Of a DNA stretch of 51,540 nucleotides, positions 31,661-43,505 are shown in pieces (position 1 is the stretch's first letter; each line of letters begins with the position of its first letter). The stretch is from Escherichia phage brachmannus: sequence record ON711395.1; one strand, given 5' to 3'. Both the position numbers and the translations under genes were made by a program. The notes below the pieces were generated by a model, which saw only the letters and a list, made by a program, of their open reading frames with translations, was not told the origin of the DNA and did no database searches.

Positions 31661-32386
31661 ATGGCTAAAGATATTTTAGATAAAGACACCCATGACGCAT
31701 TTGTTAGCTTTGAGCAGTTGGAGAGAGAAACGTTTATAGGAAATGCTCTTGCAACTGGAGGCCATTACCAAGCAGTAAAGCCAAATCAATATTATAAGGT
31801 AAGCGGCAACCGATACGCTGGAAGCACTACGCCGGACGTTGTGCGCGATATGTGGAGCACACCTCAAGAGATCGTGGAGTGGATGGAATCAGAATTTGGC
31901 GAATACGATCTCGACGCGGCAGCAAGCCAGGAAAACGCAGTTTGCGAGAAGTTCTATAGCAAGAAAACAAACTGCTTAAAGCGTTGGTGGGGTAGCAACA
32001 AGCACGTATGGCTTAACCCGCCGTACAGCAACCCAACTCCATTTATCAAGAAAGCAATTGAGCAAATGGAGCACAACAACCAAATTGATGTTTTGTTGCC
32101 ATCCGACAACTCTACAGCATGGTTTTATGAGGCGCAGAAAAACGCGGCTGAAATCATCTGGATCACTGGCGAGGTTTACGAAGAGGGGGGAGTGGAATAT
32201 TCCCGCACCGGAAGAATCGCCTTTGTGTCTGGATTGACTGGCGAGCCTGTACAGGGCAACAATAAGGGAAGCGTGATTTTTGTCATGCGCAAACTTAAAG
32301 AAGGCGAGGAGCAGAAAACGCGATACGTTAAGATCAGCGATATTTGCCCCTCTGTAACCGAACGCCGCGCGCGCAAACGGAGCTAA
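31661..32386 (+). CDS. dam: DNA N6-adenine methyltransferase (phage Dam-type)
   Basis: LNPPYSN catalytic motif; ATG 31661 with GGAG RBS (track start 31634 alternative). Confidence 0.8.
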   Translation: MAKDILDKDTHDAFVSFEQLERETFIGNALATGGHYQAVKPNQYYKVSGNRYAGSTTPDVVRDMWSTPQEIVEWMESEFGEYDLDAAASQENAVCEKFYSKKTNCLKRWWGSNKHVWLNPPYSNPTPFIKKAIEQMEHNNQIDVLLPSDNSTAWFYEAQKNAAEIIWITGEVYEEGGVEYSRTGRIAFVSGLTGEPVQGNNKGSVIFVMRKLKEGEEQKTRYVKISDICPSVTERRARKRS

Positions 32387-35783: not shown

Positions 35784-36246
35784 GATTTTTGTGGTAGCCA
35801 AATTTAACCTCCGCCTGTTCCCTTGCCTTAATTGCATCATCAAGACTTAAAAAATATCCTAAATGCACGCTCTTACCGTTATCATATATAGTTGCGTGCC
35901 ATCTTTTGTTTTTCTTATTCCAGCAAACACCAACTCGACCAGAGTTATTTCTTTTTAGTAGAGATACGTTTTTGCTGTTATCTAATCTTGATGCAAGCCT
36001 TAGATTTTCAATTCTGTTATCGCTCCTATTGTGCCATATATGGTCTATTTCCATTCCTTCTGGTATTTTTCCATTGTGCATTTCCCATATTATCCTATGC
36101 GCCAAAAACAATACACCATTATACCTTATTCTCACATATCCATTTTCACATACACATCCCGCAACGCTTCCAGGCTTTGCTTTCCCTCTTCTGTTTCTCC
36201 ATCTCAATATTCCATTGTCATATATAAATACTTCATTCCAATCCAT
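35773..36246 (-). CDS. HNH homing endonuclease with AP2-like domain (paralog of 16428-16904)
   Basis: EIDHIWHN...NLRL HNH motif; AT-rich, AGA/AGG codons; similar to first HNH gene. Confidence 0.8.
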   Translation of the reverse strand: MDWNEVFIYDNGILRWRNRRGKAKPGSVAGCVCENGYVRIRYNGVLFLAHRIIWEMHNGKIPEGMEIDHIWHNRSDNRIENLRLASRLDNSKNVSLLKRNNSGRVGVCWNKKNKRWHATIYDNGKSVHLGYFLSLDDAIKAREQAEVKFGYHKNHGK

Positions 36247-36628
36247 ATCTTTTCCTTAGAGCTTTTATTTGTTGTCTATTAGCTTTTGCCTGGAACAATT
36301 CATCATCGCCCATCTCCCCTATTCTCGCCATATCCCTGATCCAGTCGTTGCGCATACCATCCAGGCTATACAATTCGAATCCGAAAGGCCGCTTTGACGA
36401 TCCTTTGGACCAGTATTTACCGCAGACCCCATCTATATAGCCAGCCGTCATCATTCTTGCGCAAAATTCCTTAGATGTAAGGCTGGCGAACATTCGCGGC
36501 GTAAGTCCGGCGGCCCGTGCGAGCCGCTCGCATTCTCTATGCTGATAGATAAATTTGGCTATGTGCTGCCTGTTAAACCAGTCGTATGACTCACACCATT
36601 TATACAGATCAAGCAAAAACATAATCAT
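36233..36628 (-). CDS. hypothetical protein
   Basis: 131-aa ORF, overlapping neighbours. Confidence 0.45.
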   Translation of the reverse strand: MIMFLLDLYKWCESYDWFNRQHIAKFIYQHRECERLARAAGLTPRMFASLTSKEFCARMMTAGYIDGVCGKYWSKGSSKRPFGFELYSLDGMRNDWIRDMARIGEMGDDELFQAKANRQQIKALRKRYGLE

Positions 36629-38205
36629 CCCAGCAGTATTGGATTGACAAAAATAACACCATTAATCACGCAAACATAATTTCTTTCTTCCAGCATTGGC
36701 AGCAAGTGCCCCTCTATCCTCTTCATTACGCCAGCCTGACCAACGAAAGGTTTTACCTTTCTCGCTGATTCGTACAGGGCGCGAATATTCAGAATCCCTT
36801 TATTAGCCTTGCCGTGTCTAGTGATCAATTCAATCAATTTGCCCATTTCAGCATCATCACCAGCATAACCAGAAGCATTGGCGGCGCTAATGTATGTTTT
36901 GCTCAATTCCTGAAACATGATCAACGCCTCTTGCATTGTTTCCACGTCGATCTCTTTCGACTTCTGCGGGTATCCAGCAGGATTAAACCAGTTGCGGATA
37001 ACATGCAGGACGGAAGCAAGCCTGATCACCTGTTTATCCATTTTACCCAGCGCGCCGCGTAACATTGTATGAGAATACTTTCCGCCGTCTGCAAGATGCG
37101 GTTCCATATCCTGGCGAGCAATGTTGAGCACTCGCATAGCTGAACGGCTTATTTTCAGCGATATATTTGATTCGCTCATGATGTTATGCACCAATTGATA
37201 ATATTGGGCCTTCAATTCAGGATCCACCGCCTCATAGGTAGAATCACCATTTTCATCAATGAATGAGCGACGGCCTAAGAATGATCCCTCTCGGACCAAC
37301 AAAAAACGCTCACTAACACCGATGCCTCGCGATCCAGCGTCCATGATTCCGCTTATCGTTTCATCCTGGGCTATGACGCTCATACATCCAAGCGCGCGAA
37401 AACTCATATTATTGTCAGCATTAGCACGGGCAATTGATACGTGACCATTATCCCACGCCTTAAGCACTAACTCACTGTTAGTCTTCCTTTCGCTATTTGC
37501 ATAGGTCAAGCCTAACAGACTGTTAATACTTGTTGCTTCATCAGATATTACGGCAAAGTTACCTTGCTTGTTGTTGATTTTCGCCAAGCCTTCTGGAGTT
37601 GTATCTGAAACAGGAAAAGTTATATCACACATTTTTTCCAGCTTTTCCTCCAGATCCTCTTTTTCCTGGTATAGAGATTCCATATCAGCGCCGGATCTTT
37701 CGCTTTTCATCTCCTTTGCAAGACCTGCCAACTTTGCCTGTATTTTCTTTCTTTCCTTGCGGCGTTGCTCGTTGATCTTCTCAACTTCCGCAATCATCGG
37801 AGCAATAGCCATACTGTTGATTGCAGATTTACCAGTTGACGGCGGTTGGCTTGTAACGACGTAAAGCGCAGTCGGCTGATCGGTTCCGTGATAGTCAACC
37901 GTAAAGCGTCCAAGCATAGCGGCAGAAATGCAGCCGATAAAGTGCATGTAAGCCGATGATTCAGGGAATTGAACGGATCGCGCAATGCTGCGTGATAGCT
38001 TGCCGACAACATCAATATCATTACCAAGAGAAATAACGGGGTAGCGATCGTGGCCGCTATTTACATCCTTCACGTCGCCCCAAAAGCTGGACGACTGGCG
38101 ATAGCCGTTAGCCTGAATTGATACGCGAACTGGTGAAAGGTTCTGGCTTTCAGCCATAGCGATTATTTGCTGTGGAGTTAATTTGTTCGTTTCTAATGAA
38201 AACAT
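36625..38205 (-). CDS. P-loop ATPase, possible replication-associated helicase-like protein
   Basis: 526 aa; Walker A-like QPPSTGKSA and Walker B-like AVISDEATS. Confidence 0.4.
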   Translation of the reverse strand: MFSLETNKLTPQQIIAMAESQNLSPVRVSIQANGYRQSSSFWGDVKDVNSGHDRYPVISLGNDIDVVGKLSRSIARSVQFPESSAYMHFIGCISAAMLGRFTVDYHGTDQPTALYVVTSQPPSTGKSAINSMAIAPMIAEVEKINEQRRKERKKIQAKLAGLAKEMKSERSGADMESLYQEKEDLEEKLEKMCDITFPVSDTTPEGLAKINNKQGNFAVISDEATSINSLLGLTYANSERKTNSELVLKAWDNGHVSIARANADNNMSFRALGCMSVIAQDETISGIMDAGSRGIGVSERFLLVREGSFLGRRSFIDENGDSTYEAVDPELKAQYYQLVHNIMSESNISLKISRSAMRVLNIARQDMEPHLADGGKYSHTMLRGALGKMDKQVIRLASVLHVIRNWFNPAGYPQKSKEIDVETMQEALIMFQELSKTYISAANASGYAGDDAEMGKLIELITRHGKANKGILNIRALYESARKVKPFVGQAGVMKRIEGHLLPMLEERNYVCVINGVIFVNPILLG

Positions 38206-38257
38206 TCGTTAGCTTCTCCTTTGTGGGCCGTAAATTTTAACGGCCCAATACTACCCC

Positions 38258-38276
38258 GTTTTGTCAAAAAGTGCTA
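38258..38276 (-). promoter_or_regulatory. conserved motif variant (TTGACA form) + hairpin, minus strand
   Basis: minus strand TAGCACTTTTTGACAAAAC; overlaps stop of 38274 gene. Confidence 0.55.
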
Positions 38277-38495
38277 TTTGATCCGCTCTATTGCAACCAG
38301 AAGTCGATCAGGCTGGCGGTCGCTGTAGCATTCTCCTGCAATCCCATCCTTAAACGTAAAGTAAAGCGCCTTATGATATGAAAAACCAATCAGCCAACCT
38401 ACCGCCGTTTTTTTGATGGGCCTGACTATATCGCCAGGCTTGAAAGTCTTTGTGGTAGAATGCGTTACTTTGTAACGGTTTTCACTGTTTATCAC
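38274..38495 (-). CDS. hypothetical protein
   Basis: 73 aa, stop codon embedded in motif copy. Confidence 0.45.
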   Translation of the reverse strand: MINSENRYKVTHSTTKTFKPGDIVRPIKKTAVGWLIGFSYHKALYFTFKDGIAGECYSDRQPDRLLVAIERIK

Positions 38496-38878
38496 AGATA
38501 TTTGCCCTCAAACAGATAACAGCCGCCAGCAGAGAATCCGACCTCTTCACGGTACAGGTTCCAGCGGTCGCCGCACTCATCAAAAACATAACCCGCAACG
38601 CTTCCAAGCGGTCGCCCTTTCTCGATCTGGTATCGCTTGCCCTGCTTAAAGTGCTTTTTGCACGGCATGTTATGATCTACAAACGTGCAAAGAACGGTCT
38701 TTGTGTTAATTGCGCGGTAATCATCTCGGTTTGCTGGAAGCCAACGGCTACCCTTAACAAGCGTCTTAACCTGGAACTCTTCCACCTCGATCACATCATT
38801 ACTTCCTGCAATCTTCTGATAAACAGTTTTAAAACGGCCTTTCATCAATACGTTGGTTTCATTACAGATAACATTCAT
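38492..38878 (-). CDS. hypothetical protein
   Basis: 128 aa downstream of motif-hairpin cassette. Confidence 0.45.
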   Translation of the reverse strand: MNVICNETNVLMKGRFKTVYQKIAGSNDVIEVEEFQVKTLVKGSRWLPANRDDYRAINTKTVLCTFVDHNMPCKKHFKQGKRYQIEKGRPLGSVAGYVFDECGDRWNLYREEVGFSAGGCYLFEGKYL

Positions 38879-38932
38879 GATTAGATCTCCTTTGTTTGTT
38901 CGATGTGATTATGCCAGGTTTTTACACCTGGC

Positions 38933-38950
38933 TTTTAACAAAAAGTGCTA
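38933..38950 (-). promoter_or_regulatory. conserved motif + hairpin GCCAGGTG...CCTGGC + CATAAT, minus strand
   Basis: overlaps stop of methyltransferase-like gene; upstream of 38878 start. Confidence 0.6.
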
Positions 38951-39658
38951 TTTTGAGTTTGACTCAAAGACGGCGCGAGCAAAGCCGCGCGGAGTGAGGG
39001 AGCGGATCATCTTTGTGCGCGATGACTTGCCGCCAGTTTTGGCCCAGCCTGGATTATCTTTGTCTTCCTCTTTCGGCAGGATTAAAGCGCGCGGAGGAAT
39101 AACAAAGCCGTTGCCAGTCCAGAGGCACGTTCTCTTAAAGTAGCGATCCCGCGCCGGAATAATATCAGGGAAGTCGGGATGTTTATCATCTTCCGGCAGA
39201 TAGCCAGCGTAATCGCACGGATGGAACGTATAATCAGGCTTACGCCATAACGTTGACAACTTGCCAACCGGATTTTCGATCATGTAAGGAACACCGAAAT
39301 AATCAGCTATATCAGCCGCGATTCTGCAAGTGTCTGCGGCCTCATCCTGGAACGATGGATTCTCAAGGCGTTTTTTGGCCCAATGGCGAGATCCGCTATT
39401 TGCAAGGTCGGTGCAAGGAGGGAACGCCATAATAAAATCAGGATTGCCCCACTCATTATTGATTGCCTTAACATAAAAAGCATCATCAATCCAGACGTTA
39501 ACGTATTCGATATTCTCATGCTGTATGCGCACTGACTGGTAATCACCGTGATCGCCGCCGTCAGCATTAAAGCAAATGCACTTATATCCATTATCAGCCC
39601 AATCTTTAACGGCTTTACCAGATCCATCAAATAGGGAGAATATTAAACCTTTATACAT
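38948..39658 (-). CDS. C5-cytosine DNA methyltransferase-like protein (short, no obvious target-recognition domain)
   Basis: motifs LFDGSG (I), FPPC (IV), ENPVG (VI), GNGFV (X-like), SLTPRGFARAV C-terminal; ATG 39656-39658 with GAGGT RBS. Confidence 0.5.
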   Translation of the reverse strand: MYKGLIFSLFDGSGKAVKDWADNGYKCICFNADGGDHGDYQSVRIQHENIEYVNVWIDDAFYVKAINNEWGNPDFIMAFPPCTDLANSGSRHWAKKRLENPSFQDEAADTCRIAADIADYFGVPYMIENPVGKLSTLWRKPDYTFHPCDYAGYLPEDDKHPDFPDIIPARDRYFKRTCLWTGNGFVIPPRALILPKEEDKDNPGWAKTGGKSSRTKMIRSLTPRGFARAVFESNSK

Positions 39659-39668
39659 CGTCATTACC

Positions 39669-39893
39669 TCAAAACGGAAAACAGCGCGGACAACCAGGAT
39701 CGAAAACGCATCCACAATCATTAACAATCATAGTGGGATCTGCAAATATTGCGCTTGATTCAAGATCCATATCCATATCACCTAAAGCCTCATCAAGACT
39801 CTTAATTTTATATGCCACTTCAAGCGCCGCCTCTTTATTTAGTCCGGCATCTTCTGCCATTTGAAGGCGCTCAAAAAATCCGTCTTGACTCAT
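39669..39893 (-). CDS. hypothetical protein (Cys-rich C-terminus)
   Basis: 74 aa; CGC...CPRC pattern. Confidence 0.4.
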   Translation of the reverse strand: MSQDGFFERLQMAEDAGLNKEAALEVAYKIKSLDEALGDMDMDLESSAIFADPTMIVNDCGCVFDPGCPRCFPF

Positions 39894-40018
39894 CGCATAA
39901 TCCCCTTAATAACAGCCAAGATAATAGCCATGCCAGCAGCAGTAACCAAAAAACAAACCGCGCCAATAATCGAATAAAAAAAGAAATCAATAGCTTTATC
40001 TATCACTTTCCACCTCAT
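39890..40018 (-). CDS. small hydrophobic membrane protein (42 aa, not in ORF track)
   Basis: manual translation MRWKVIDKAIDFFFYSIIGAVCFLVTAAGMAIILAVIKGIMR; stop overlaps next gene start (ATGA); no clear RBS. Confidence 0.3.
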   Translation of the reverse strand: MRWKVIDKAIDFFFYSIIGAVCFLVTAAGMAIILAVIKGIMR

Positions 40019-40048
40019 TTAAAAGGCGGCAACACGCCGCCAGATTAA

Positions 40049-40276
40049 TTAAAGAGCGCGCCAGCTTTGAATATAGAAAGCGTTTTCTTCCAGTAATTCT
40101 TTTAACTGATCTTTATTGTATTTGCGCACCTTACCGCCTGGATGGATACCAATAAGATAGCCGCCTTTGCCCTCGGTGATAGTGATTTGGCTAATTCCAC
40201 AAGACTTATCAAGTTTTACAGCCACGCGGTGATGAGCGTCAATAGTTGACATAATGTTTAAAACTTTTGCTTTCAT
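40049..40276 (-). CDS. hypothetical protein
   Basis: 75-aa ORF followed by hairpin+T-run. Confidence 0.45.
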   Translation of the reverse strand: MKAKVLNIMSTIDAHHRVAVKLDKSCGISQITITEGKGGYLIGIHPGGKVRKYNKDQLKELLEENAFYIQSWRAL

Positions 40277-40384
40277 TTAAATATCCTCAATTGAAATATG
40301 AATGGCGTCGTGCTCTTTTTCCGTCGCCGACGTAATGGTAATTTGCAACCGCTACCATCCAGGCATTTTTGAAAATAAATAGCC

Positions 40385-40597
40385 TCATTTATTATTTTTC
40401 ATCTTAAATTTATGGCCTGGAACACCAGCACCAATATAGCCATCGTTGTATCCCATTAAATAAAGGCGAAGGCCATTATCTGAAATTACATGAGGATATT
40501 CTTTGAGATTTCCCATTAGCGGGTATTCTTTTCCGCGCGTAAATCTCCAAGTTGAGTCATAAGTTTCTACGCATTTAAGTTTTAATTGCTTTGCCAT
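40385..40597 (-). CDS. hypothetical protein
   Basis: 70 aa; TAATG overlap with upstream gene. Confidence 0.45.
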   Translation of the reverse strand: MAKQLKLKCVETYDSTWRFTRGKEYPLMGNLKEYPHVISDNGLRLYLMGYNDGYIGAGVPGHKFKMKNNK

Positions 40598-40794
40598 TAG
40601 ATGATCTCCATGTATGTTTCAAAGCCATTTAACTTGAACAGGTCGTTTTCACATTTGCGAACGTTCCAAGTTAGCCCTGAGTGGTACGCCTCCATATCAT
40701 CAAGGTCAATGGTGATTTCAGCACCTTTCTTAAACAAACCTTTTTCGTGAGACTTGTCGCGCTTAACAACTTTAACATCAACCTGATTTTCCAT
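40597..40794 (-). CDS. hypothetical protein
   Basis: 65 aa. Confidence 0.45.
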   Translation of the reverse strand: MENQVDVKVVKRDKSHEKGLFKKGAEITIDLDDMEAYHSGLTWNVRKCENDLFKLNGFETYMEII

Positions 40795-40848
40795 CTTTAA
40801 ATCCTCGTTTGTTGTCGATGCGCTTACTATACCAATCAGCAGCGCATC

Positions 40849-40868
40849 GTTTTTAACAAAAAGTGCTA
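40849..40868 (-). promoter_or_regulatory. conserved motif + 8-bp hairpin + TATAGT, minus strand
   Basis: minus strand TAGCACTTTTTGTTAAAAAC then CGATGCGC...GCGCATCG. Confidence 0.6.
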
Positions 40869-40869
40869 T

Positions 40870-41133
40870 TTAGTCCAGAAATTCGATTTCACGCTCTCCA
40901 GTTAACGGATCTACAAGCCAGAATCCGAGCGGTTCGCCGTGCATACCGCCATAGAATCCAAGCGCCGCCAGATCTTCACCTTTAACAAATACCAGGTTTC
41001 CGCTACGGCTTACGTGAGACACGTTAACGATAACCGGAAATGTGCGATCCTTAAATTCGGGCCGCAGGGCGTAACACCCGTTATTGAGCAAGCGTGCTTT
41101 GCGCTTAACTGGAATAGGTGCATTAATTTTCAT
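40870..41133 (-). CDS. hypothetical protein
   Basis: 87 aa; stop embedded in motif copy. Confidence 0.45.
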   Translation of the reverse strand: MKINAPIPVKRKARLLNNGCYALRPEFKDRTFPVIVNVSHVSRSGNLVFVKGEDLAALGFYGGMHGEPLGFWLVDPLTGEREIEFLD

Positions 41134-41359
41134 GGTTATTACTCCTTATCGTAAAGATTTAAAGACGTATAGTTTATTTCGGTAACTATATATCCGCATT
41201 GTTATTTCTCGCAGCGCAATATATTCCTTCCTGTTTTCCGGAAGACTGGCGAGCAACAACAGGCAGTATTTATAAGCGCGGTCAAGATTCCTTTCCGTGC
41301 CCCTGCAATATCCCTTGTTGCGCCTGGAGCGGTACAGCCATAACAATTTCTTGAACATT

Positions 41360-41569
41360 TCAGATACGCCCATACAGATCGCAAACTTCGTTGATAAAAC
41401 AGCGTTGAGACTCTTTATCCTGCTTCTCAAAAATTGCGCGGCATTCAAACTTAAGATTATGCACGATGACTACAACCATATTTTCAGGCATTGAGCGGTT
41501 ATAGCGTCGCGCGTCAGTGATTAAAACATCCATACCCATCTCATGTGCTTTCTTGATCACATCCAACAT
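41360..41569 (-). CDS. hypothetical protein
   Basis: ATG with GGAGAAG RBS; alternative overlapping ORF 41146-41448 judged less likely. Confidence 0.35.
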   Translation of the reverse strand: MLDVIKKAHEMGMDVLITDARRYNRSMPENMVVVIVHNLKFECRAIFEKQDKESQRCFINEVCDLYGRI

Positions 41570-41823
41570 TTTTTCTTCTCCTGCAATAAGCAAACATCAT
41601 TGATAAAATCAGCACGGCCCTTAATGTTGCTGATGTGGAACGTCTTTTCAGCGTACAGGCCATCACCTTCAATCACGATCATTACGCGAGTCGGTTTATT
41701 CACTGGCGCACACGAAAAGAGTGGTCGCGCCGGAAGAAATTTAGTGGTCACATCCAGGTTAGCCCTGGCGGCCCTGCAAAACGCCTCCGCCAGATCCAAA
41801 TCATTTTCGGTAATCACCGCCAT
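41557..41823 (-). CDS. hypothetical protein
   Basis: 88 aa. Confidence 0.45.
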   Translation of the reverse strand: MAVITENDLDLAEAFCRAARANLDVTTKFLPARPLFSCAPVNKPTRVMIVIEGDGLYAEKTFHISNIKGRADFINDVCLLQEKKKCWM

Positions 41824-42095
41824 TACTTTTTGATCTCCTTACTGATAAATTTCAGCACCTGGCGCAAGAAAACTTCGTTGTTGATAGTCGCTGGCAATTC
41901 TTCTTTCACTTCTTGCGGCAGATAGATATTGCCGTGCCAGGTCAAGCAATCGTAGTTGATACGATAAGAGCAAAGCCACTCGCAATCGTTATCTGCTTCC
42001 CAAATGCAGAGTTGCAGAACATCGCCAAAATCTTCAACAGTCAGATCCAGACCGTGACGCTTAGCGAAATTGAAAGTGGTTTTGCTGATGTTCAT
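41823..42095 (-). CDS. hypothetical protein (first gene of minus-strand early block)
   Basis: 90 aa downstream of motif-hairpin cassette. Confidence 0.45.
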   Translation of the reverse strand: MNISKTTFNFAKRHGLDLTVEDFGDVLQLCIWEADNDCEWLCSYRINYDCLTWHGNIYLPQEVKEELPATINNEVFLRQVLKFISKEIKK

Positions 42096-42154
42096 TTACT
42101 ATCTCCTGAGCGGTTCGTTTCGATGTGTGTAATGTACCCGATCAGGCGGCCTGA

Positions 42155-42173
42155 TTTTTAACAAAAAGTGCTA
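42155..42173 (-). promoter_or_regulatory. conserved motif + hairpin, minus strand, upstream of first minus-strand early gene
   Basis: minus strand TAGCACTTTTTGTTAAAAATCAGGCCGCCTGAT. Confidence 0.55.
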
Positions 42174-42713
42174 TTTGACGGTTAGCACCAGGATTGTGAT
42201 CGAAATAATCAAAAGTAATCATTCGTAATCAAATCACGTCAAAATGATGATTGCCTTTGCAAATTTGATGAGAAAAGTAATCACGTTTAATCATTGGTTG
42301 CAGGGGAGATAGTGAAACCTTCCCCTCTTGCCTCACTTTTCCGCCCGGCTGTCAGTGGTTGTTATGTTCCGTTCCCGCCTGTTCTTTTGTTGACCTTCCG
42401 CAAAATACGATAACAAAAAATAACAAACAGTACCTATATAATACATTGAAAAATAAGTATTATTTATTTATATGTATCTATATATTCTCTTTTGTTATCT
42501 TGGTTATTGTGGTATTTGGTGGGGTATATAGTTTTTGTGTATCTGTATGTGTGTATGGGTATGTAGGGGGCATATATATCTATATGGCACTTTCCGCGAG
42601 AAAACTTCGATAACAGGCAATGATAACATTGATTTATAAGGAAAAATAACGCCCATATTGTTATTGTGCCACCATATAAAATTGATAAAACACGCGGGAA
42701 CAAGAAAAAACAG

Positions 42714-42742
42714 TTGACACATTAAATAGCATTATTGATAAT
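42714..42742 (+). promoter_or_regulatory. sigma70-like promoter TTGACA-17-GATAAT upstream of plus-strand early array
   Basis: consensus -35 and good -10 about 30 nt upstream of AGGAGG RBS of 42772 gene. Confidence 0.6.
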
Positions 42743-42771
42743 GCCGACACCTAACAACCAGGAGGTAGAAA

Positions 42772-43236
42772 ATGAGCGAGCAATCATTCACTGACACGCT
42801 GCGCCGTGCAGCTATTATGCTGGCTAATGGCGAGGAAGAGACGATCAAGATTCCTGACGCGTATTTGCAGGTCCACATGTTCGGTAAGAAGTCGGCAAGC
42901 AATCCGGCGGCCTACATTCGCCAGATCATGAGTCGAGTGCCAGAAGTCGCCGAGCGGGGGCGCGTATCCGTTACCCGTGGCGTTTACGGGCCGGAAGATG
43001 AAAACTTCGGTAGCACTTTCTACGAGGTGCGGATTGTTGAAGGCCGTCGCAAGGTTTACAACAAAGAGGCACTGGAAAAGGCAGTGCGCCAGGCTAAGCG
43101 CAAGGTTGCAGAGGCGATCATTGATATGTCACCAAACCTGGCAAACTATGCGCCGGAAGAGTACGAAACATTATCAAAGGCCGTCGCTGACTTTCACGCG
43201 ATGATCAAAAAAACTTTCCTGGAGGATGAGCAATGA
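42772..43236 (+). CDS. hypothetical protein (first plus-strand early gene)
   Basis: 154 aa, AGGAGG RBS, downstream of TTGACA-17-GATAAT promoter. Confidence 0.55.
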   Translation: MSEQSFTDTLRRAAIMLANGEEETIKIPDAYLQVHMFGKKSASNPAAYIRQIMSRVPEVAERGRVSVTRGVYGPEDENFGSTFYEVRIVEGRRKVYNKEALEKAVRQAKRKVAEAIIDMSPNLANYAPEEYETLSKAVADFHAMIKKTFLEDEQ

Positions 43237-43505
43237 AAAAGGCATTAATCAGCGTTTTGGCGGCAATGGCATTCCTGACCGGATGCAAAGAAGATGGCGC
43301 GCATGTTGGCAATGTGCAGATGGCTAACCCTGGCGATGACTACAGCGTAAGGGAGCTATTCACCGCTGACGGTTGCACCGTTTACCGATTCTATGACGAT
43401 CGCACTGTTTACTTCACCAACTGTAAGGGCACGACTATCTGGGAAGTGTCGAAAAGCAATGGCAAAGGCACGAAGACAGAACATATGACCGTCGAGACAA
43501 AATAG
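43233..43505 (+). CDS. small lipoprotein
   Basis: signal peptide with lipobox LTGC. Confidence 0.5.
   Translation: MKKALISVLAAMAFLTGCKEDGAHVGNVQMANPGDDYSVRELFTADGCTVYRFYDDRTVYFTNCKGTTIWEVSKSNGKGTKTEHMTVETK

What the first reader, a model, noticed from the sequence alone, without database searches (positions are those of the whole stretch)
38948..39658. Short C5-cytosine methyltransferase-like gene in addition to a Dam methylase
The 236-aa product carries the ordered motifs LFDGSG, FPPC, ENPVG, GNGFV and a C-terminal SLTPRGFARAV that resembles the conserved R-x-L-T-P-R-E segment of Dcm-like enzymes, but it is too short for a typical target-recognition domain. With the Dam-type enzyme at 31661-32386 this gives two DNA-modification candidates, possibly anti-restriction or a base-modifying enzyme with a methyltransferase fold.
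Basis: partly seen in the sequence, partly recalled or inferred. Interest (0 to 1): 0.65.

Follow-up and report, generated by a model that had tools for sequence, protein, structure and literature searches.

The report
Compact phage C5-cytosine DNA methyltransferase
The gene is real and encodes a very small DNA cytosine-C5 methyltransferase common in T1-like coliphages, and a close relative (89% identical) has already been shown to put 5-methylcytosine on DNA and to trigger the bacterial retron Ec86 defence, so it is an ordinary, already described gene.

Summary
The ORF exists at 38948-39658, on the minus strand (236 aa). All five quoted motifs are present. The window is a complete T1-like coliphage genome (Drexlerviridae, Tempevirinae, Warwickvirus-like; 98-99% nt identity to tinuso and swan01).

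The protein is 99.6% identical to the BASEL phage FritzSarasin protein annotated "Dcm-like C5 cytosine methyltransferase". It is 89% identical, same length and gap-free, to the KarlJaspers orthologue. The dcm of a KarlJaspers-like phage (K42, 711 bp as here) was shown by Wang et al. (bioRxiv 2023; Cell Rep 2024) to raise 5mC on retron Ec86 msDNA and to trigger that defence. Its catalytic residues were C82, E128, K175 and K176; here they are C82, E128, K175 and R176.

The enzyme has a minimal target-recognition region and no canonical motif X. It is not a homologue-by-sequence of E. coli Dcm.

The Dam gene at 31661-32386 is confirmed. GATC and CCWGG are the only short palindromic sites not depleted in a genome that strongly avoids restriction sites.

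The parts
38948..39658 (-). Gene for the 236-aa compact C5-cytosine DNA methyltransferase (phage 'Dcm-like', PHROG 757); the stop codon is at 38948-38950.
   Evidence: ORF and translation. PHROG 757 at E = 1.3e-84. 99.6% identical to FritzSarasin 'Dcm-like C5 cytosine methyltransferase'. 89% identical to KarlJaspers bas06_0055.
39666..39670 (-). Shine-Dalgarno sequence GAGGT, 7-8 nt upstream of the ATG at 39658.
   Evidence: Sequence. In KarlJaspers the same GAGG lies at -11 to -8. The K42 escaper mutation (C to A, 9 bp upstream of dcm) reported falls on one of its G residues; this mapping is my inference.
39617..39634 (-). Motif I, LFDGSG (residues 9-14): the F-x-G-x-G AdoMet-binding loop after strand beta1.
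   Evidence: D11, G12, S13 and G14 are invariant in 35 homologues. It aligns to motif I of DNMT3B. It follows strand 4-8 of the model.
39413..39424 (-). Motif IV, FPPC (residues 79-82), containing the catalytic nucleophile Cys82.
   Evidence: P81 and C82 are invariant. It aligns to the PC motif of DNMT3B and to FPCQ of E. coli Dcm. C82 is one of four residues (C82, E128, K175, K176) changed together in the inactive quadruple mutant of the K42 orthologue.
39263..39277 (-). Motif VI, ENPVG (residues 128-132; the canonical form is ENV), with Glu128.
   Evidence: E128, N129 and P130 are invariant. It lies at the end of strand beta5 of the model. E128 is one of four residues (C82, E128, K175, K176) changed together in the inactive quadruple mutant of K42 Dcm.
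39131..39136 (-). Basic pair K175-R176, just before strand beta7; the motif VIII equivalent.
   Evidence: K175 is invariant and residue 176 is K in at least 90% of the 35 aligned homologues. K175/K176 were named substrate-binding residues by superposition on DNMT3A and were mutated in K42 Dcm.
39101..39115 (-). GNGFV (residues 182-186): the conserved turn after beta7, at the entry to the short target-recognition segment. It is not motif X.
   Evidence: Its position relative to the model's secondary structure is shown, and it lies upstream of motif IX. G182, G184 and F185 are nearly invariant.
38969..39001 (-). Motif IX-like segment SLTPRGFARAV (residues 220-230), followed by only 6 more residues. 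No canonical motif X (GNxV) follows.
   Evidence: I218 to G225 are invariant. The best local BLASTP match to E. coli Dcm pairs IRSLTPRGFARAV with RRLTPRECARLM, although E = 2.1.
31661..32386 (+). Companion T1-type Dam N6-adenine DNA methyltransferase (241 aa, NPPY motif).
   Evidence: PF05869 at E = 2.4e-61. NPPY at residue 119. Annotated as dam in swan01 and KarlJaspers.

Best explanation
The gene encodes an active, AdoMet-dependent DNA cytosine-C5 methyltransferase of the compact phage family sold in databases as 'Dcm-like' (PHROG 757). It is the orthologue of the dcm gene of the KarlJaspers-like phage K42.

Mechanism (inferred from the canonical C5-MTase mechanism). The F-D-G-S-G loop binds AdoMet. 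Cys82 of the PPC motif attacks C6 of a flipped-out cytosine. Glu128 of the ENP motif protonates N3. K175/R176 hold the base and backbone. The methyl group then goes to C5.

Target reading (inferred). Recognition must be done by a very small apparatus: a conserved 30-residue insertion between strands beta6 and beta7 (residues 146-175), plus about 40 residues between beta7 and motif IX. The enzyme therefore resembles the DNMT3 catalytic domain more than bacterial Dcm.

Target and role. The likely target is CCWGG, as reported for the orthologue on retron msDNA. Together with the phage Dam (GATC), the enzyme would pre-methylate replicating phage DNA against methylation-sensitive restriction. As a side effect the same activity betrays the phage to retron Ec86/Eco1, whose msDNA stem-loop carries CCTGG.

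Shown versus inferred. Shown here: the gene, its conservation, its fold, intact catalytic residues and orthology. Shown by others for the 89%-identical orthologue: 5mC formation, dependence on the catalytic residues, and retron triggering. Inferred: the CCWGG specificity of this particular protein and its anti-restriction role.
For: - Orthology. 89% identity and 93% similarity over 236/236 residues with no gaps to KarlJaspers bas06_0055, in identical synteny: DUF3987 helicase, two small ORFs, dcm, small ORF. 99.6% identity to FritzSarasin 'Dcm-like C5 cytosine methyltransferase'.
- Experimental literature on phage K42, whose genome is 95.4% identical to KarlJaspers. All four retron-Ec86 escapers disrupt the 711-bp dcm. 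Dcm expression raises 5mC on msDNA by LC-MS. The C82A/E128A/K175A/K176A mutant is inactive. Mutating the CCTGG in the msDNA stem-loop abolishes defence. The work was published as Wang et al., Cell Rep 2024, 43:114857 (reference seen).
- Family conservation. D11-G12-S13-G14, P81-C82, E128-N129-P130, K175 and I218-G225 are invariant in 35 homologues with 53-82% identity to the query.
- Profiles. PF00145 is the only recurrent Pfam family among members, in 16 of 35, but below threshold. PHROG 757 'DNA methyltransferase' matches at E = 1.3e-84.
- Genome statistics. CCWGG is 129 observed vs 129.1 expected and GATC is 311 vs 310. In contrast CCSGG is 3 vs 19.3, and 31 of 64 six-base palindromes are below 25% of expectation.
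Against: - No Pfam or NCBIfam model reaches threshold.
- The profile search against PDB sequences is only marginal, E = 0.09.
- hhalign against an E. coli Dcm orthologue profile gives probability 1.7%.
- No canonical motif X follows motif IX, and the Glu of the motif IX 'RE' is a Gly.
- In what I could read, CCWGG specificity was assumed from E. coli Dcm rather than mapped genome-wide. The experiments were run in dcm+ MG1655, where host Dcm did not methylate the msDNA or trigger the retron. The phage enzyme therefore differs from host Dcm in specificity, substrate access or dose.
- BASEL found no simple link between Drexlerviridae methyltransferase genes and restriction resistance.
- The lack of CCWGG and GATC depletion is equally expected from host Dam and Dcm.
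- No experiment has been done on this exact protein.
Confidence: 0.88

Rival explanations
1. It is an active C5-cytosine DNA methyltransferase, but its target or substrate preference is not that of E. coli Dcm. Possibilities include the outer C of CCWGG, a shorter or overlapping motif, or a preference for hairpin or single-stranded DNA made accessible by its small size. 'Dcm-like' would then be a misnomer as regards specificity.
For: There is no detectable sequence relationship to E. coli Dcm outside the catalytic motifs: BLASTP E = 2.1 and hhalign probability 1.7%. The target-recognition region is unrelated and about three times shorter. In dcm+ MG1655 the msDNA showed low 5mC and the retron stayed silent until the phage enzyme was expressed. 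Substituting either or both of the two cytosines (AATGG, ACTGG, CATGG) abolished defence, so the assay does not say which C is methylated.
Against: The CCTGG site in msDNA is required for triggering. CCWGG is exactly at expectation while its sibling CCSGG is six-fold depleted, which fits protection of CCWGG specifically. Over-expression from a plasmid, rather than different specificity, could explain the difference from host Dcm.
Confidence: 0.2
2. It transfers a group other than methyl, for example carboxymethyl from Cx-SAM as the phage enzyme CmoX does, and so starts a DNA hypermodification.
Against: LC-MS detected 5mC as the product of the orthologue. CmoX systems come with a phage CmoA and usually a ligase, and use an active-site Arg. 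No such genes are annotated in the syntenic genomes swan01 and KarlJaspers. DNMT3B and other plain methyltransferases score as well or better.
Confidence: 0.03
3. It is not a DNA enzyme at all. It would be either a Dnmt2-like RNA/tRNA methyltransferase or a catalytically dead methyltransferase-fold protein acting as a DNA-binding decoy or anti-defence factor.
Against: The Dnmt2 hits score no better than generic Rossmann proteins. Every catalytic residue is invariant across the family. DNA 5mC was measured, and retron triggering was catalysis-dependent, for the orthologue.
Confidence: 0.03

Closest known systems
Dcm of phage K42 / KarlJaspers (Bas06) bas06_0055, the phage trigger of retron Ec86 (Eco1); Wang et al., bioRxiv 10.1101/2023.08.16.553469 and Cell Rep 2024, 43:114857
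   Same: Both are 236 aa from a 711-bp gene, 89% identical to KarlJaspers without gaps, with the same neighbours and strand context. C82, E128 and K175 are at identical positions, and the upstream Shine-Dalgarno sequence is the same.
   Different: 25 substitutions, mostly in the region of residues 32-66 and at the C-terminus. Residue 176 is R instead of K. The host phage genus differs: Warwickvirus-like here versus Hanrivervirus. No experiment has been done on this allele.
Catalytic domain of mammalian DNMT3A/DNMT3B
   Different: Identity is only about 18%. DNMT3 enzymes read CpG, work as DNMT3L-containing tetramers, and retain a motif X. The phage protein is about 50 residues shorter still and carries a 30-residue insertion between beta6 and beta7.
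E. coli Dcm / M.EcoRII-type CCWGG methyltransferases (PF00145 + PF18284)
   Same: Same chemistry (C5 methylation) and the same reported target, CCWGG. Both have the PC and ENx motifs and an R-x-L-T-P-R segment.
   Different: E. coli Dcm is 472 aa, with an N-terminal PF18284 domain and a target-recognition region of about 115 residues. There is no significant pairwise or profile similarity, and no vsr partner gene accompanies the phage gene. The phage protein is an analogue in function, not an orthologue.
Classical bacterial type II C5-MTases M.HhaI / M.HaeIII (PF00145)
   Different: The bacterial enzymes are about 330 aa, with a separate small target-recognition domain and a full motif IX-X pair. 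The phage family stays below the PF00145 gathering score: best 17.1 bits against a cutoff of 22.
CmoX, the DNA cytosine C5-carboxymethyltransferase of Synechococcus phage S-B43 (PDB 8yf3; PMC12783734)
   Different: CmoX is 333 aa, uses Cx-SAM through an active-site Arg, acts on a GC motif, and is encoded next to CmoA and a ligase. None of these features applies here.

Membership tests
DNA cytosine-C5 methyltransferases (C5-MTase superfamily, Pfam PF00145) | Motif I, the F-x-G-x-G AdoMet-binding loop after beta1 | tested here: met
   F10-D11-G12-S13-G14; D, G, S and G are invariant in 35 homologues. It aligns with motif I of DNMT3B and follows strand 4-8 in the model.
DNA cytosine-C5 methyltransferases (C5-MTase superfamily, Pfam PF00145) | Motif IV, the Pro-Cys dipeptide with the catalytic cysteine after beta4 | tested here: met
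   P81-C82 are invariant. They align with the PC of DNMT3B and of E. coli Dcm. C82 is one of four residues (C82, E128, K175, K176) changed together in the inactive quadruple mutant of the orthologue.
DNA cytosine-C5 methyltransferases (C5-MTase superfamily, Pfam PF00145) | Motif VI, the E-N-V glutamate at the end of beta5 | tested here: met
   E128-N129-P130 are invariant and lie at the end of strand 124-128. V is replaced by P. E128 is one of four residues (C82, E128, K175, K176) changed together in the inactive quadruple mutant of the orthologue.
DNA cytosine-C5 methyltransferases (C5-MTase superfamily, Pfam PF00145) | Motif VIII basic residues (R-x-R type) | tested here: inconclusive
   K175 is invariant and residue 176 is K in at least 90% of aligned homologues (R in this protein), just before strand 176-181. 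The equivalence to the DNMT3A residues comes from the superposition in the paper. I had no model coordinates and could not verify it.
DNA cytosine-C5 methyltransferases (C5-MTase superfamily, Pfam PF00145) | Motif IX (R-x-L-T-x-R-E) followed by motif X (G-N-x-V) closing the AdoMet pocket | tested here: not met
   A motif IX-like I-R-S-L-T-P-R-G is invariant and pairs with the RRLTPRE of Dcm, but Glu is replaced by Gly. The protein ends 11 residues later with no GNxV. GNGFV lies upstream of motif IX. An invariant N234 near the C-terminus might substitute; this was not tested.
DNA cytosine-C5 methyltransferases (C5-MTase superfamily, Pfam PF00145) | Score at or above the Pfam PF00145 gathering threshold | tested here: not met
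   The query gives no hit even at E <= 10. 16 of 35 family members hit PF00145 below threshold, best E 0.0022. Distant members reach at most 17.1 bits against a cutoff of 22.
DNA cytosine-C5 methyltransferases (C5-MTase superfamily, Pfam PF00145) | C5-MTase three-dimensional fold as the best structural match | tested here: met
DNA cytosine-C5 methyltransferases (C5-MTase superfamily, Pfam PF00145) | Formation of 5-methylcytosine in DNA from AdoMet | not testable with these tools
   Reported for the 89%-identical K42/KarlJaspers orthologue by LC-MS of msDNA, and lost in the catalytic mutant.
E. coli Dcm / M.EcoRII family (orthologues of chromosomal Dcm) | Sequence homology over the whole enzyme, including the N-terminal PF18284 domain and the CCWGG target-recognition domain | tested here: not met
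   BLASTP E = 2.1 and hhalign probability 1.7%. Dcm orthologues carry PF00145 + PF18284 and are about 472 aa.
E. coli Dcm / M.EcoRII family (orthologues of chromosomal Dcm) | Methylation of the inner cytosine of CCWGG | not testable with these tools
   Assumed in the paper; supported by the loss of defence when the msDNA CCTGG is mutated. The genome shows no CCWGG depletion, 129 vs 129.1, which is compatible but not decisive.
Phage compact 'Dcm-like' methyltransferases (PHROG 757; retron Ec86 trigger family) | Full-length match to the family profile, length of about 210-260 aa, and orthology to the tested K42/KarlJaspers protein | tested here: met
   PHROG 757 at E = 1.3e-84 over residues 2-235. 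89% identity to KarlJaspers in conserved synteny. Family lengths are shown.
CmoX-type DNA carboxymethyltransferases | Co-encoded CmoA (Cx-SAM synthase) and ligase, and an Arg that binds the cofactor carboxylate | tested here: not met
   No CmoA or ligase is annotated in the syntenic genomes swan01 and KarlJaspers; the features of the family are taken. The Arg position could not be checked without model coordinates.

The most novel reading that the evidence does not exclude
The compact 236-aa enzyme is not a functional copy of host Dcm. Lacking a canonical motif X and a separate recognition domain, it may read DNA through the conserved beta6-beta7 insertion, possibly as a dimer. It may also have a specificity or substrate range that host Dcm lacks, such as the outer C of CCWGG, a relaxed motif, or hairpin or protein-bound DNA. 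That would explain why retron Ec86 stays silent in dcm+ cells yet fires on the phage enzyme. It would also make this the smallest sequence-specific C5-MTase architecture characterised.
Probability: 0.2. Interest if true: 0.4.

Novelty: already known. Interest (0 to 1): 0.12.

Why it matters
It matters little as a discovery. The gene is annotated as a Dcm-like C5 methyltransferase in near-identical GenBank records, and its orthologue has been characterised as the trigger of retron Ec86.

It remains useful as annotation in three ways:
- It predicts that this phage will be sensitive to retron Ec86/Eco1, for example in E. coli BL21.
- It predicts that virion DNA carries 5mC in addition to Dam m6A, which is relevant for cloning, restriction mapping and nanopore basecalling.
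- It shows that Pfam and NCBIfam miss a large phage methyltransferase family, with more than 2000 clusters at 50% identity.

The open points are the exact specificity of the enzyme and how such a small protein reads its target.

Tried and rejected
- Pfam and NCBIfam scans of the protein gave nothing. Scanning 35 family members and 10 distant representatives gave only sub-threshold PF00145 hits.
- phmmer and a profile hmmsearch against PDB sequences gave only marginal DNMT3B hits, E 0.09-0.6, covering motifs I-IV.
- BLASTP and hhalign against E. coli Dcm and a profile of its orthologues showed no significant similarity. The Dcm homologue search returned only close orthologues (>= 74% identity), so that profile was shallow. 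I therefore rejected the idea that the gene is a captured or truncated host dcm.
- I considered the longer TTG start at 39727, which the RefSeq swan01 annotation uses (774 bp). I rejected it in favour of ATG 39658 because of the Shine-Dalgarno sequence, the overlap with the upstream gene, the homologue starts and the BASEL annotation.
- I tried to read the published Cell Reports version; it is not held. A literature search for genome-wide methylome data on this phage family found nothing specific.
- The promoter and terminator scan of 36000-43500 was not above the shuffled background and added nothing on regulation.

Full report
**Observation.** The interval 38948-39658 contains an ORF on the minus strand, from ATG at 39658 to a stop at 38950-38948, encoding 236 aa.

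The mechanical ORF can be extended to a TTG at 39727, and the RefSeq record of phage swan01 annotates such a longer form. The ATG at 39658 is better supported. It is preceded by GAGGT at a 7-8 nt spacing and lies 10 nt after the stop of the upstream gene. Most homologues start there. The BASEL annotation of the orthologue is exactly 711 bp.

The companion Dam claim also holds. 31661-32386 (+) matches PF05869 at E = 2.4e-61 and carries NPPY.

**What the window is.** The 51,540-bp window is essentially a whole T1-like siphovirus genome. The region around the gene is 98-99% identical at the nucleotide level to Escherichia phages tinuso, tunzivis and swan01 (Drexlerviridae; Tempevirinae; Warwickvirus).

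The gene sits in a minus-strand block of small early-type ORFs. It lies two small ORFs away from a DUF3987 helicase-like gene at 36625-38205. The arrangement is the same in swan01 and in BASEL phage KarlJaspers.

**What the protein is.**
- Pfam and NCBIfam do not recognise it.
- PHROG 757 "DNA methyltransferase" matches end to end at E = 1.3e-84.
- tblastn finds it in 1499 phage records: Escherichia, Klebsiella, Salmonella, Shigella and Vibrio phages, including rV5-like myoviruses. It is variously annotated as DNA methyltransferase, putative C-5 cytosine methylase, or hypothetical.
- A profile search of 1.84 billion representatives finds 2123 clusters at 50% identity (961 at E <= 1e-10), nearly all 210-260 aa long. 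This is a large, coherent family of compact proteins.
- In an alignment of 35 members (53-82% identical to the query) the invariant positions are the ones expected for a C5-MTase: D11-G12-S13-G14 (motif I), P81-C82 (motif IV), E128-N129-P130 (motif VI), K175 (motif VIII region) and I218-R-S-L-T-P-R-G225 (motif IX-like).
- PF00145 is the only Pfam family hit recurrently by members (16 of 35), though always below threshold.

**Structure.** An AlphaFold2 model built on that alignment is confident (pLDDT 88.8, pTM 0.88). It shows the alternating beta/alpha Rossmann-type pattern, with the motifs at the expected strand ends.

**Literature.** The decisive evidence is published. Wang et al. (bioRxiv 10.1101/2023.08.16.553469; published as Cell Rep 2024, 43:114857, reference seen) selected escapers of retron Ec86 using phage K42, a KarlJaspers-like phage. 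Their findings:
- All four escapers disrupted a 711-bp dcm gene.
- Dcm expression was toxic only in the presence of the retron.
- LC-MS showed elevated 5mC on msDNA with wild-type Dcm but not with the C82A/E128A/K175A/K176A mutant.
- Changing the CCTGG in the msDNA stem-loop abolished defence.

I fetched KarlJaspers (MZ501090). Its "Dcm-like C5 cytosine methyltransferase" (bas06_0055, 711 bp) is 89% identical and 93% similar to the window protein over all 236 residues without a gap. C82, E128 and K175 are conserved, and residue 176 is K there and R here.

Two of the reported escapers carry a C-to-A change 9 bp upstream of dcm. On the coding strand that position is a G of the GAGG Shine-Dalgarno sequence, which is conserved in KarlJaspers and in the window. 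This mapping is my inference. It independently supports the start codon.

The window protein is also 99.6% identical to the protein BASEL annotates as Dcm-like in FritzSarasin.

**How it most likely works.** The enzyme should use the canonical C5-MTase mechanism (established knowledge, inferred for this protein). AdoMet is bound by the FDGSG loop. Cys82 attacks C6 of a flipped cytosine, assisted by Glu128. The methyl group is transferred to C5, followed by beta-elimination.

What is unusual relative to textbook bacterial enzymes is the economy of the rest of the protein:
- Only about 40 residues separate the motif VIII region from motif IX, against about 115 in E. coli Dcm.
- The protein ends 11 residues after the motif IX-like T-P-R-G, so there is no canonical motif X.
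- The Glu of the 'RE' is Gly.
- A conserved 30-residue insertion (146-175) lies between strands beta6 and beta7.

Target reading is therefore probably done by the 146-175 insertion plus residues 182-217 (inference). In overall size and architecture the protein resembles the DNMT3 catalytic domain.

It is not a sequence homologue of host Dcm beyond the catalytic motifs: BLASTP E = 2.1 and hhalign probability 1.7%. 'Dcm-like' therefore describes function only.

**Biological role.** The role is inferred. With Dam, the enzyme would methylate replicating phage DNA faster than the host enzymes can, protecting GATC and CCWGG sites from methylation-sensitive restriction.

The genome statistics fit this. 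The phage avoids restriction sites very strongly. 31 of 64 six-base palindromes are below 25% of the Markov expectation, and 19 are absent, including EcoRI, EcoRV and HindIII sites. CCSGG is 3 observed against 19.3 expected. GATC (311 vs 310) and CCWGG (129 vs 129.1) sit exactly at expectation.

This is compatible with protection of those two sites by the phage enzymes, but it is equally expected from host Dam and Dcm. BASEL also found no simple relation between Drexlerviridae methyltransferase genes and restriction resistance. The cost of the gene is documented: it exposes the phage to retron Ec86.

**Residual uncertainty.** In what I could read, CCWGG specificity was taken over from E. coli Dcm rather than mapped. 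The experiments were done in dcm+ MG1655, where msDNA 5mC was low and the retron was silent until the phage enzyme was expressed. The phage enzyme therefore differs from host Dcm in dose, substrate access or specificity. This is the only part of the finding where something new could still emerge. I give it about 0.2.

A CmoX-like carboxymethyl transfer is unlikely. No CmoA or ligase gene is annotated in syntenic genomes, and 5mC was the measured product.

**Verdict.** The gene is an already known, already annotated and (in an 89%-identical orthologue) experimentally characterised phage C5-cytosine DNA methyltransferase. Interest is low.

Noticed in passing
whole window 1-51540: The genome avoids restriction sites to an extreme degree. 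31 of 64 six-base palindromes are below 25% of the Markov expectation, and 19 are absent (AAGCTT 0 vs 19.6, GGCGCC 0 vs 17.5, GATATC 0 vs 15, GAATTC 0 vs 12.1; TCCGGA is 1 vs 22). The total for six-base palindromes is 531 observed against 834 expected. GATC (311 vs 310) and CCWGG (129 vs 129.1) are not depleted at all. The absence of EcoRI and EcoRV sites may explain the restriction resistance that BASEL reports for the near-identical FritzSarasin.
   Followed up: partly
window 22371, 32669, 42344 (the only CCSGG sites): CCSGG is the most depleted interrupted pentanucleotide palindrome, with 3 observed against 19.3 expected, while its sibling CCWGG is at expectation. This suggests selection by CCSGG- or CCNGG-type restriction enzymes of enterobacteria, with CCWGG escaping through methylation.
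   Followed up: partly
window 39659-39727 and L001 9949-10722: The RefSeq and ENA records of swan01 annotate the dcm CDS with an upstream start (774 bp) that overlaps the preceding gene by 53 nt. The ATG at 39658, with its GAGGT Shine-Dalgarno sequence, is the better start, as in the BASEL annotations (711 bp).
   Followed up: yes
window 36625-38205 (-): A 526-aa protein annotated as 'DNA helicase' in relatives matches only DUF3987 (PF13148, E = 1.4e-43). Two conserved small ORFs of unknown function (38274-38495 and 38492-38878) lie between it and dcm. One K42 escaper lost a 2,262-bp segment containing four genes including dcm (the other three are not named in the text read), so that segment is dispensable.
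   Followed up: no
BFVD entries A0A6J5SE15 (1397 aa) and A0A6J5NPY6 (1126 aa): The same compact methyltransferase module (about 28% identity, TM about 0.64) also occurs as one domain of very large proteins from uncultured phages, one of them annotated as helicase/UvrB N-terminal. These are methyltransferase-helicase fusions.
   Followed up: no
phage collection hits: 20-39 records named 'Campylobacter phage' with host Campylobacter jejuni (for example MG065648 A144 and MG065663 A134, both unannotated) carry this T1-like coliphage gene and region. They look like mislabelled or contaminant coliphage sequences.
   Followed up: no
window 40025-40041 (-): A strong terminator-like hairpin, GGCGGCGTGTTGCCGCC followed by TTTT, lies on the gene's strand about 370 nt upstream of dcm, between small ORFs. 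dcm may therefore depend on read-through or on an unrecognised promoter downstream of it.
   Followed up: no
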